DNA of 64,000 nt, taken from the NCBI RefSeq assembly GCF_988243305.1, contig NZ_OZ547136.1; one strand, given 5' to 3'. The notes beneath the pieces were generated by a model, which did not search any database, was not told where the DNA came from, and saw nothing but the letters and a program-made list of their open reading frames with translations. A program made the translations under genes and the position numbers. Below are positions 1,811 through 56,460 of the stretch, in pieces (the stretch's first letter is position 1; the number at the start of each line of letters is the position of its first letter).

Positions 1811-3065
<1,255 letters not shown>

Positions 3066-3066
3066 C

Positions 3067-3125
<59 letters not shown>

Positions 3126-3202
3126 CCACTACCCACTGTTTTTACACCGATAATTTTTCCCCCACCTTTTTGCACTCATTCATATAAAAAATATATTTCC
3201 CC

Positions 3203-9939: not shown

Positions 9940-9969
9940 TCGGATAAGGCGCTCGCGCCGCATCCGACA
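9940..9969. repeat. REP element in the lacY-lacA intergenic region
   Basis: TCGGATAAGGCGCTCGCGCCGCATCCGACA palindrome. Confidence 0.6.
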
Positions 9970-22933: not shown

Positions 22934-22981
22934 TGATGACTGCCGAGAACGTGCATTTTGTATGCCCATCCCAGCACGACT

Positions 22982-23015
22982 GCCGGATGCGGCGTAAACG
23001 CCTTGTTCGGCCTAC
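22982..23015. repeat. REP element after mhpE (GCCGGATGCGGCGTAAACGCCTTGTTCGGCCTAC)
   Basis: Canonical REP palindrome. Confidence 0.6.
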
Positions 23016-23112
23016 ATTTTCTTCGCCTGTAGGCAGTCATTAAATGGTTCTGATTACGCGGCTGGCAATGTATCAGCCGCGATTCACCTGCACTCGCAAC
23101 GAGGTTCATCTT

Positions 23113-24988: not shown

Positions 24989-25025
24989 GCCTGATGCGAC
25001 GCTTTGCGCGTCTTATCAGGCCTAT
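24989..25025. repeat. REP element (first of a pair) ending ATCAGGCCTAT
   Basis: GCCTGATGCGACGCTTTGCGCGTCTTATCAGGCCTAT. Confidence 0.65.
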
Positions 25026-25041: not shown

Positions 25042-25076
25042 GTAGGCCGGATAAGGCGTTCACGCCGCATCCGGCA
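25042..25076. repeat. REP element (second of a pair, inverted relative to the first)
   Basis: GTAGGCCGGATAAGGCGTTCACGCCGCATCCGGCA. Confidence 0.65.
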
Positions 25077-26016: not shown

Positions 26017-27156
<1,140 letters not shown>

Positions 27157-51329: not shown

Positions 51330-51854
51330 ATGACACAACCTCTTTTTCTGATCGGGCCTCGGGGCTGTGGTAAAACAACGGTCGGAATGGCCCTTGCCGA
51401 TTCGCTTAACCGTCGGTTTGTTGATACCGATCAGTGGTTGCAATCACAGCTCAAGATGACGGTCGCGGAGATCGTCGAAAGGGAAGAGTGGGCGGGATTC
51501 CGCGCCAGAGAAACGGCGGCGCTGGAAGCGGTAACTGCGCCATCCACCGTTATCGCCACGGGCGGCGGCATTATTCTGACGGAATTTAATCGTCACTTTA
51601 TGCAAAATAACGGGATCGTGGTTTATTTGTGTGCGCCAGTATCAGTCCTGGTTAACCGACTGCAAGCTGCACCGGAAGAAGATTTACGGCCAACCTTAAC
51701 GGGGAAACCGCTGAGCGAAGAAGTTCAGGAAGTGCTGGAAGAACGCGATGCGCTATATCGCGAAGTTGCGCATATTATCATCGACGCAACAAACGAACCC
51801 AGCCAGGTGATTTCTGAAATTCGCAGTGCCCTGGCACAGACGATCAATTGTTGA
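51330..51854 (+). CDS. aroL: Shikimate kinase II
   Basis: 174-aa ORF; Walker [10 protein letters not shown]. Confidence 0.95.
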
Positions 51855-54327: not shown

Positions 54328-54352
54328 TTATATGCCTGGTGTAGCTTCGTAC

Positions 54353-54385
54353 GCCGGATAAGACGCGGCAGGCGTCGCATCCGGC
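54353..54385. repeat. REP element between the hypothetical ORF and rdgC
   Basis: GCCGGATAAGACGCGGCAGGCGTCGCATCCGGC. Confidence 0.6.
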
Positions 54386-54404
54386 ATTAAAGGTAAATCA
54401 GCAA

Positions 54405-55440: not shown

Positions 55441-56349
55441 GTGCGTATAGGTATCGATTTAGGCGGCACCAAAACTGAAGTGATTGCACTGGGCGATGCA
55501 GGGGAGCAGTTGTACCGCCATCGTCTGCCCACGCCGCGTGATGATTACCGCCAGACCATTGAAACGATCGCCACGCTGGTTGATATGGCGGAGCAGGCGA
55601 CAGGGCAGCGCGGAACAGTGGGGATGGGCATTCCTGGCTCAATTTCGCCTTACACCGGCGTGGTGAAGAATGCCAATTCAACCTGGCTCAACGGTCAGCC
55701 ATTCGATAAAGACTTAAGCGCGCGGTTGCAGCGGGAAGTGCGGCTGGCAAATGACGCCAACTGTCTGGCGGTTTCAGAAGCGGTAGATGGCGCGGCAGCG
55801 GGAGCGCAGACGGTATTTGCCGTGATTATCGGCACGGGATGCGGCGCGGGCGTGGCATTCAATGGGCGGGCGCATATCGGCGGCAATGGCACGGCAGGTG
55901 AGTGGGGACACAATCCGCTACCGTGGATGGACGAAGACGAACTGCGTTATCGCGAGGAAGTCCCTTGTTATTGCGGTAAACAAGGTTGTATTGAAACCTT
56001 TATTTCGGGCACGGGATTCGCGACGGATTATCGTCGTTTGAGCGGACATGCGCTGAAAGGCAGTGAAATTATCCGCCTGGTTGAAGAAAGCGATCCGGTA
56101 GCGGAACTGGCATTGCGTCGCTACGAGCTGCGGCTGGCAAAATCGCTGGCACATGTCGTGAATATTCTCGATCCGGATGTGATTGTGCTGGGGGGCGGGA
56201 TGAGCAATGTAGACCGTTTATATCAAACGGTTCCGCAGTTGATTAAACAATTTGTCTTCGGCGGCGAATGTGAAACGCCGGTACGTAAGGCGAAGCACGG
56301 TGATTCCAGCGGCGTACGCGGCGCTGCGTGGTTATGGCCACAAGAGTAA
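55441..56349 (+). CDS. mak: Fructokinase/manno(fructo)kinase (ROK family)
   Basis: ORF track 55303..56349; GTG start at 55441 ([13 protein letters not shown]) gives 302 aa. Confidence 0.92.
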
Positions 56350-56374: not shown

Positions 56375-56411
56375 GCCTGATGCGACGCTTGCCGCGTCTT
56401 ATCAGGCCTAC
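56375..56411. repeat. REP element ending with ATCAGGCCTAC
   Basis: GCCTGATGCGACGCTTGCCGCGTCTTATCAGGCCTAC. Confidence 0.65.
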
Positions 56412-56425
56412 AAAATGAGCAGCCC

Positions 56426-56460
56426 GTAGGCCGGATAAGGCGTTCACGCCGCATCCGGCA
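56426..56460. repeat. REP element (inverted partner)
   Basis: GTAGGCCGGATAAGGCGTTCACGCCGCATCCGGCA. Confidence 0.65.

What the first reader, a model, noticed from the sequence alone, without database searches (positions are those of the whole stretch)
56401..56411. Additional REP elements carry the same ATCAGGCCTA(C/T) motif and are candidate further insertion sites
The RNA loop sequence ATCGGGCCT matches the motif ATCAGGCCT at the occupied site. The same motif with the adjoining AC or AT occurs in REPs at 56401-56411 (ATCAGGCCTAC) and 25015-25025 (ATCAGGCCTAT). A related sequence is at 23005-23015 (GTTCGGCCTAC). If the RNA guides site choice, these are predicted secondary targets, and REP copy number would govern the element's spread.
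Basis: inference. Interest (0 to 1): 0.45.

Follow-up and report, generated by a model that had tools for sequence, protein, structure and literature searches.

The report
Known IS621 landing sites in REPs
The flagged 11-base motif is the published landing site of the RNA-guided insertion sequence IS621 inside E. coli REP repeats, and other E. coli genomes carry IS621 at these same REPs, so the prediction is right but not new.

Summary
ATCAGGCCTAC (56401-56411), ATCAGGCCTAT (25015-25025) and GTTCGGCCTAC (23005-23015) are where stated, each at the 3' end of a REP palindrome.

The element at 1845-3123 is IS621. It is 1279 bp and its transposase is 326/326 identical to PDB 8WT6. The "RNA loop" ATCGGGCCT (1908-1916) is the left target guide of its published bridge RNA.

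The literature already names ATCAGGCCTAC in REPs as the natural IS621 target, with an rG:dT pair at position 4.

I surveyed 5,426 complete E. coli genomes with junction queries:
- **56401 REP (mak-araJ):** IS621 sits at exactly the predicted position in 11 genomes.
- **25015 REP (yaiL-fghA):** occupied in 99-221 genomes, but always on the AC allele. The window's AT allele is rare and was never seen occupied.
- **23005 REP:** occupied in one strain only, where the REP reads ATCCGGCCTAC and the IS carries a different guide.
- **Occupied prpE-codB site:** 296 genomes.
- **Controls:** three sites that match only part of the guide had 0 insertions.

One of them is occupied in one genome.

Verdict: a correct rediscovery of known biology.

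The parts
56375..56411 (+). REP (Z-type palindromic unit) in the mak-araJ intergenic BIME. Its 3' end carries the exact natural IS621 target.
   Evidence: 95% identity to the published REP query. Palindrome arms 56375-56388 / 56394-56407. Lies between convergent ORFs.
56401..56411 (+). 11-nt IS621 target ATCAGGCCTAC: left target 1-7, CT core 8-9 (56408-56409), AC 10-11. Unoccupied in this window.
   Evidence: The orthologous site is occupied by IS621 in 11 of 5,426 genomes, with junction ATCAGGCCT|IS|ACAAAATG. Listed among natural targets in Durrant Supplementary Data 2, seq95/96.
56425..56460 (-). Partner Y-type REP of the same BIME. Carries ATCCGGCCTAC at 56426-56436 (minus strand), with one mismatch (position 4 C) to the guide.
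   Evidence: Occupied in one genome (ws5-3) by an IS copy identical to the window's, with junction ATCCGGCCT|IS|ACGG.
24989..25025 (+). REP in the yaiL-fghA BIME. The 11-mer at 25015-25025 is ATCAGGCCTAT, a rare allele with T instead of C at target position 11.
   Evidence: The locus is occupied in 99 genomes by left junction and 221 by right junction, all on the AC allele. The exact AT-allele 55-mer is found in 5 records.
25042..25076 (-). Partner Y-type REP, with ATCCGGCCTAC at 25042-25052 (minus strand).
   Evidence: No occupied genome was found, with an undercount caveat from the 40-piece limit.
22981..23015 (+). Degenerate Y-type REP downstream of mhpE. The 11-mer GTTCGGCCTAC (23005-23015) has three mismatches to the guide (positions 1, 3, 4).
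   Evidence: The only occupants are PT62/LP5-1, where the REP reads ATCCGGCCTAC and the IS has LTG ATCCGACCT.
1811..1844 (+). REP downstream of prpE, split at its CT core (1843-1844) by IS621. This is the occupied site.
   Evidence: 97% identity to the REP query. Junction read. The same junction is present in 296 genomes.
1845..3123 (+). IS621, 1279 bp, no terminal inverted repeats. CT lies on both sides (1843-1844 and 3122-3123). Right flank is ACCCACT...
   Evidence: 100% identical copies are annotated as IS621 in RefSeq genomes.
1859..2035 (+). Bridge RNA (177 nt) encoded in the left end.
   Evidence: With 1859 as nucleotide 1, the published positions fall on the expected bases. Predicted fold is -64.5 kcal/mol, z = -3.58 against shuffles.
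1908..1916 (+). Left target guide (LTG, A50-U58) AUCGGGCCU.
1932..1938 (+). Right target guide GUAG (G77-G80, 1935-1938), complementary to the target's CTAC, preceded by UGC (1932-1934), which can extend pairing to a 3' GCA.
1981..1988 (+). Left donor guide (A123-C130) ACAGUAUC, matching the IS right end ACAGTATCT (3115-3123).
2036..3016 (+). IS621 recombinase gene (326 aa).
   Evidence: 326/326 identical to PDB 8WT6 chain A, 'IS621 transposase'.

Best explanation
The window is E. coli chromosome carrying one copy of IS621 (1845-3123), an IS110-family element. Its DEDD/serine recombinase is directed by a 177-nt bridge RNA encoded in the left end.

The target-binding loop reads an 11-nt site. 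[quoted passage not shown] Recombination occurs at the CT core. That 11-mer is the 3' end of the Z-type REP consensus, so it recurs wherever such REPs occur.

The flagged REP at 56375-56411 is an exact, currently empty target. The REP at 24989-25025 is a rare position-11 variant (C to T) of a frequently used target. By inference this variant would replace the G77:C pair with a G:T pair, making it a weaker but not excluded site. The REP at 22981-23015 is too diverged for this guide.

Shown: the sequence identities, the guide positions, and natural occupancy of these loci. Taken from published experiments: RNA guidance and mismatch rules. Inferred: the relative ranking of the three sites in this particular strain.
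For: - **Identity of the element:** the recombinase is 326/326 identical to PDB 8WT6 IS621. The IS is 1279 bp with a CT core at both junctions. 100% identical copies are annotated as IS621 in RefSeq.
- **Guide positions:** A50-U58 = ATCGGGCCT, G77-G80 = GTAG, 74-76 = TGC and A123-C130 = ACAGTATC all fall as published.
- **Published target and genome-wide assay:**
- **Natural occupancy in 5,426 genomes:** prpE-codB 296; mak-araJ + strand 11; yaiL-fghA 99/221; mak-araJ minus-strand partner 1. Every junction I read lies exactly after the CT and is followed by AC.
- **Negative controls, all 0 genomes:** ATCAGGCCTTT at 26774; an exact LTG 9-mer ATCGGGCCT+CG at 51351; a REP with a GT core at 54352-54362.
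- **Guide-target covariation:** the IS copy in PT62 sits in ATCCGGCCTAC. It carries LTG ATCCGACCT, and 7 of its 27 substitutions fall in a 31-nt stretch of the target-binding loop (binomial P = 3e-6).
- **Prior listing:** the three loci appear in Durrant's list of 834 reconstructed natural targets for TBL ATCGGGCCTAC.
Against: - No experiment was done on this strain.
- Occupancy counts are genomes, not independent insertion events, so clonal inheritance inflates them.
- The window's own allele at 25015 (AT) has no observed insertion.
- The window's inter-REP spacer right of 56411 differs from that of the occupied genome I read (L003). The 11-mer and the next 6 bases are identical.
- Rfam 15 gave no hit at gathering threshold for the bridge RNA. 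RNA identity therefore rests on sequence correspondence with the published numbering, not on a covariance-model match.
- The BLAST 40-piece limit may undercount insertions at the Y-type partner REPs.
Confidence: 0.95

Rival explanations
1. The motif recurs only because it is part of the REP consensus, which is maintained for REP's own reasons. IS621 finds REPs through protein recognition of the REP palindrome or hairpin, not through the RNA loop. The loop resemblance would then be incidental.
For: The motif excess is fully explained by REP membership. Pre-2024 literature proposed protein-based recognition of REP palindromes (Tobes & Pareja 2006, PMC1525189).
Against: - A REP with the palindrome intact but a GT core and position-4 C (54352-54362) is never occupied.
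- Insertions are always at the same phosphodiester bond after CT.
- A variant IS with a changed LTG sits in a correspondingly different REP type.
- Published reprogramming experiments move the target by changing the RNA alone.
- The cryo-EM structure shows LTG/RTG-DNA base pairs.
Confidence: 0.02
2. The 25015 REP in this strain (ATCAGGCCTAT) is no longer a usable target. The position-11 change breaks RTG pairing, so only 56401 is a real secondary site in this window.
For: None of the 221 right junctions at this locus matches the AT allele; the best is 63/64. [quoted passage not shown]
Against: - The AT allele is very rare (5 records), so the absence of insertions is uninformative.
- T opposite G77 would be an rG:dT pair, the same non-canonical pair tolerated at position 4 (inference).
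- In the first 129 natural target reconstructions for this guide, at least four distinct right flanks begin with AT, e.g. seq4, 15, 101, 108.
Confidence: 0.4
3. The occupied alleles seen in other genomes reflect one or a few ancient insertions spread by descent or homologous recombination. On this reading the survey does not show that these REPs are hit repeatedly.
For: Counts are genomes, not events. Many RefSeq genomes are clonally related, and PT62 and LP5-1 are evidently the same strain.
Against: - The 11 mak-araJ occupants come from diverse hosts and show at least four levels of flank identity, 98.0-99.5%.
- Four different REPs within this 64-kb region are occupied in different genome sets, each at the predicted bond.
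- The laboratory assay hit 129 ATCAGGCCTAC sites de novo in one genome.
Confidence: 0.15

Closest known systems
IS621 (IS110 family) with its bridge RNA: Choi et al. 2003 J Bacteriol 185:4891; Durrant et al. 2024 Nature 630:984; Hiraizumi et al. 2024 Nature 630:994
   Same: The element is identical: recombinase 326/326, length 1279 bp, LTG, RTG and LDG at the published positions. The target ATCAGGCCTAC in REPs is the same, as is the rG:dT tolerance at position 4. The loci in this window are already in the published list of natural targets.
   Different: Nothing of substance. This window only shows which local REPs are empty in one strain, and that one of them carries a rare position-11 variant.
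REP / BIME elements of E. coli (Y and Z palindromic units)
   Same: About 35-nt imperfect palindromes ending in ...GGCCTAC, extragenic, in inverted pairs separated by a short spacer between convergent genes.
   Different: None. These are ordinary REPs. The REPs at 22981-23015, 9941-9966 and 54348-54386 are degenerate copies.
Other REP-targeting insertion sequences: IS1397/ISKpn1 (IS3 family) and ISPpu9/ISPpu10 (IS110 family, Pseudomonas putida)
   Same: They insert specifically into REP sequences. The IS110 members also use a left-end-encoded RNA.
   Different: IS1397 is a DDE IS3-family element with no bridge RNA and inserts in the REP loop. The Pseudomonas elements have different guides and different REP families.
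IS1111-type elements with seekRNA (Siddiquee et al. 2024, PMC11187229)
   Same: Related DEDD transposases with RNA-guided target choice.
   Different: The RNA lies at the other end of the element, subterminal inverted repeats are present, and the targets differ (abstract only).

Membership tests
IS621 / IS110-family bridge-RNA recombination system | DEDD (RuvC-like) plus Tnp-domain serine recombinase of about 326 aa | tested here: met
   326/326 residues identical to PDB 8WT6 'IS621 transposase'.
IS621 / IS110-family bridge-RNA recombination system | 177-nt bridge RNA in the left end, with a target-binding loop (LTG A50-U58, RTG G77-G80) and a donor-binding loop (LDG A123-C130) | tested here: met
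   With window 1859 as nt 1, positions 50-58 = ATCGGGCCT, 77-80 = GTAG, 74-76 = TGC and 123-130 = ACAGTATC. The fold is more stable than shuffles, z = -3.58. Transcription was not tested.
IS621 / IS110-family bridge-RNA recombination system | No terminal inverted repeats; element bounded by the CT core on both sides; donor sequence ACAGTATCT|TGTAT across the circle junction | tested here: met
   Junctions are ...ATCAGGCCT|TGTATTATCC... and ...ACAGTATCT|ACCCACT. Length is 1279 bp.
IS621 / IS110-family bridge-RNA recombination system | Insertion at the 11-nt target ATC(A/G)GGCCTAC complementary to LTG/RTG, typically in REPs | tested here: met
   Occupied site in the window. Natural insertions at orthologous 56401 (11 genomes), 25015 (99-221) and 56426 (1), with 0 at three partial-match controls.
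IS621 / IS110-family bridge-RNA recombination system | Match to a curated RNA family model | tested here: not met
   No Rfam 15 family reached gathering score anywhere in the window. This reflects the library's content or threshold and is not evidence against the RNA.
IS621 / IS110-family bridge-RNA recombination system | Actual transposition activity of this copy into the flagged REPs | not testable with these tools
   Needs an in vivo insertion assay.
REP / BIME | About 35-nt imperfect palindrome matching the Y or Z consensus and ending in GGCCTAC | tested here: met
   blastn-short against the three published REP queries gives 94-97% identity over 34-37 nt at 1811, 22981, 24989, 25042, 56375 and 56425. 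Palindrome arms found.
REP / BIME | Extragenic location, often as inverted pairs between convergent genes | tested here: met
   56375-56460 lies between ORFs ending at 56349 (+) and 56488 (-). The REPs at 56375 and 56425 are inverted, with 14 nt between the arms of the inter-REP repeat. Orthologous loci are annotated mak/araJ and yaiL/fghA.

The most novel reading that the evidence does not exclude
This strain's C-to-T change at target position 11 of the yaiL-fghA REP (25025) sits at one of the most frequently occupied IS621 sites in the species. It could be a host-side 'escape' allele that lowers insertion at a hot spot. Alternatively, it could show that IS621 tolerates a second rG:dT pair (G77:T), widening the natural target set beyond ATCAGGCCTAC. 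Neither reading is excluded. The allele is too rare (5 records) for the survey to decide.
Probability: 0.1. Interest if true: 0.3.

Novelty: already known. Interest (0 to 1): 0.1.

Why it matters
It does not change what is known. It shows that a reader working from raw sequence alone recovered the IS621 bridge-RNA targeting rule. It also shows that the rule predicts, base for base, where IS621 sits in other E. coli genomes, and that partial matches stay empty. The practical value is small. It gives a ranked list of empty IS621 targets in this region, and a simple junction-query method for checking predicted insertion sites against thousands of genomes.

Tried and rejected
- **Rfam scan of the whole window:** no family at gathering threshold, so there is no independent RNA-family call.
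- **Reading Choi et al. 2003 (PMC166490):** not held in the library. It is cited only through the reference lists of the papers I could read.
- **Searching the Durrant supplements for the 11-mer variants:** no hits in the stored part of Supplementary Table 3. I therefore could not check whether the BL21(DE3) orthologues of these exact REPs were hit in the laboratory assay.
- **Searching the supplement for the full target-binding-loop sequence:** failed on the 40-character term limit. I relied on the published residue numbering instead.
- **Tracing the window to strain C4, which shares the rare AT allele:** C4 is only about 98% identical, so the source genome stays unidentified.
- **Treating 26774 (ATCAGGCCTTT) and 51351 (ATCGGGCCTCG) as possible targets because they match the LTG:** rejected. 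Both lack the AC read by the RTG, neither is a REP, and neither is occupied in any of 5,426 genomes.

Full report
**Observation.** ATCAGGCCT occurs four times in the window against 0.37 expected, and 0 of 100 shuffles reached that. One copy ends at 1844, directly against an inserted element, and ATCGGGCCT lies inside that element at 1908-1916.

REP membership explains the excess. A blastn-short search with the three REP sequences used by Durrant et al. finds full-length REPs at 1811-1844, 22981-23015, 24989-25025 and 56375-56411 on the plus strand. It finds them at 25042-25076 and 56425-56460 on the minus strand, plus degenerate copies at 9941-9966 and 54348-54386. The palindromic arms and the inverted pairing of the two REPs in each BIME are confirmed. 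The 56401 REP lies between convergent ORFs, annotated mak and araJ in orthologous RefSeq loci.

**What the element is.** The insertion spans 1845-3123 and is 1279 bp long. It has CT on both sides and no inverted repeats...ATCAGGCCT|TGTATTATCC... and ...ACAGTATCT|ACCCACT.... Its 326-aa ORF (2036-3016) is identical at all 326 residues to the IS621 transposase of PDB 8WT6. Identical DNA copies are annotated as IS621 in RefSeq.

Taking 1859 as nucleotide 1 of the 177-nt bridge RNA, the residues named in the cryo-EM paper fall on the expected bases. LTG A50-U58 is AUCGGGCCU (1908-1916). RTG G77-G80 is GUAG (1935-1938). The optional extension 74-76 is UGC. LDG A123-C130 is ACAGUAUC, which matches the right end ACAGTATCT. 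The RNA folds more stably than shuffled controls, z = -3.58.

**What is already known.** Durrant et al. 2024 (PMC11208160) state that the naturally observed IS621 target is ATCAGGCCTAC. The guide encodes ATCGGGCCTAC, and position 4 is tolerated as an rG:dT pair. In a genome-wide assay in BL21(DE3), 144 of 173 insertion sites were in REPs, 129 sites matched ATCAGGCCTAC, and those plus two ATCGGGCCTAC sites took 96.2% of insertions. They also report low mismatch tolerance at all nine non-core positions and 272 distinct natural target clusters. REP targeting by IS621 goes back to Choi et al. 2003, which I could cite only through the reference lists of the papers I read.

The supplementary list of natural targets for the guide class ATCGGGCCTAC has 834 entries. 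It already contains the prpE-codB site (seq47/57), the yaiL-fghA site (seq49-51, 105) and the mak-araJ site (seq95/96).

**Test of the prediction.** For each candidate I joined 200 nt of left flank, ending at the CT, to the first 200 nt of the IS. I then searched 5,426 complete E. coli genomes. A genome scores only if one place covers at least 80% of the chimera.

| Site | Window 11-mer | Genomes occupied |
|---|---|---|
| prpE-codB (occupied in window) | ATCAGGCCT\|IS\|AC | 296 |
| mak-araJ, + strand (56401) | ATCAGGCCTAC | 11 |
| yaiL-fghA, + strand (25015) | ATCAGGCCTAT | 99 (left junction), 221 (64-nt right junction) |
| mhpE-mhpT (23005) | GTTCGGCCTAC | 2 records, evidently one strain |
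| mak-araJ partner, - strand (56426-56436) | ATCCGGCCTAC | 1 |
| yaiL-fghA partner, - strand (25042-25052) | ATCCGGCCTAC | 0 (40-piece limit may undercount) |
| Control: non-REP sequence (26774) | ATCAGGCCTTT | 0 |
| Control: REP with GT core (54352-54362) | ATCCGGCGTAC | 0 |
| Control: exact LTG 9-mer followed by CG (51351) | ATCGGGCCTCG | 0 |

Both ends of representative insertions showed a 1279-bp element exactly after CT and followed by AC: ATCAGGCCT|IS|ACAAAATG at mak, ATCAGGCCT|IS|ACGGTTTATGG at yaiL, and ATCCGGCCT|IS|ACGGTTCTGG at the araJ-side partner. The last of these is an IS copy with no differences from the window's.

**Ranking the three named sites.**

- **56401.** This is an exact target. 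Its REP, the 11-mer and the next six bases are identical to an occupied allele. Only the inter-REP spacer further right differs.
- **25015.** The locus is a much-used target, but every occupied copy has AC. The best match to the window's AT version of the right junction is 63/64. The AT allele itself is rare, with the exact 55-mer in 5 records. The lack of insertions therefore says little. Because the RTG pairs with the top strand (G77 with position 11), C to T would give an rG:dT pair rather than a hard mismatch. This step is inference. In the first 129 published natural targets for this guide, at least four different right flanks begin with AT. I rate 25015 a plausible but weaker site.
- **23005.** This has three true mismatches (positions 1, 3, 4). 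The one strain with an IS there has ATCCGGCCTAC at that REP. Its IS copy differs from the window's at 27 of 1279 positions. Seven of these fall within 31 nt of the target-binding loop, at bridge RNA positions 46, 53, 55 and 73-76, giving LTG AUCCGACCU (binomial P = 3e-6). That guide class is also already in the published data, with 35 targets. It is a neat natural case of guide and target changing together, but it argues against 23005 as a target for the window's IS.

**'REP copy number would govern the element's spread.'** Of the 5,426 genomes, 2,244 have IS621-related sequence and 1,635 have a near-complete copy. The median is 5 places per genome and the maximum 28. One laboratory genome offered at least 129 usable ATCAGGCCTAC sites. 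REPs define where the element can go, but site supply is far from limiting. The comparison is an inference from those two numbers.

**Mechanism.** This follows established knowledge. Excision gives a circle whose RE-LE junction rebuilds a sigma-70-like promoter that drives the bridge RNA. The window's junction would read TTGCAG-17 nt-TATTAT (by my reading). The RNA's two loops pair with the donor (the circle junction) and the target (the REP 11-mer). The recombinase tetramer exchanges strands at the CT cores through a Holliday junction. None of these steps was tested here. What I tested is sequence identity with the characterised element and the natural distribution of insertions.

**Verdict.** It has been known since 2003 for REP targeting and since 2024 for RNA guidance. 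There is no novelty beyond minor local details.

Noticed in passing
L001 (E. coli PT62, NZ_CP090448.1) 1701-2979; compare window 1904-1934: An IS621 copy 97.9% identical to the window's has 7 of its 27 substitutions packed into the target-binding loop, giving LTG ATCCGACCT and changing the bases 5' of the RTG. It sits in a Y-type REP (ATCCGGCCTAC). This is a natural retargeting variant. The guide class is present in Durrant's data (35 targets).
   Followed up: partly
window 25025 (position 11 of the yaiL-fghA REP target): The window has T where all occupied alleles, and most genomes, have C. The exact 55-mer with T is found in only 5 of about 2,600 matching records. One is strain C4, which is only about 98% identical to the window elsewhere.
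   Followed up: partly
window 3124-3137: The right flank of the IS starts with a tandem 7-nt duplication, ACCCACT ACCCACT. The published natural target list contains both the duplicated form (seq47) and a single-copy form (seq57) of this prpE-codB site.
   Followed up: no
Durrant et al. Supplementary Data 2 (file 15), seq4/23/43/106/119/120 and seq110-118: Many reconstructed 'targets' combine the left flank of one locus with the right flank of another. One example is the non-REP left flank AGTCTGACCGAGTATAATCGGGTCT joined to the prpE-codB right flank in seq113. This suggests rearrangements between IS621 copies rather than simple insertions.
   Followed up: no
window 51351-51361: This is the only exact copy of the LTG 9-mer ATCGGGCCT outside the IS. 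It lies near the start of a coding region (after ...ACGATGACACAACC...) and is followed by CG, not AC. It is never occupied in 5,426 genomes.
   Followed up: yes
window 22981-23060 versus L001 1640-1700 and 2980-3040: The mhpE-mhpT intergenic region holds a single degenerate REP in the window. PT62 has a fuller BIME there (Y REP, spacer, inverted Z REP), so REP content at this locus varies between strains.
   Followed up: no
window 54348-54386 (-) and 9941-9966 (-): Two further REP-like palindromes have lost the CT core: ATCCGGCGTAC and ATCCGACCAAC. The first was used as a negative control and is never occupied.
   Followed up: partly
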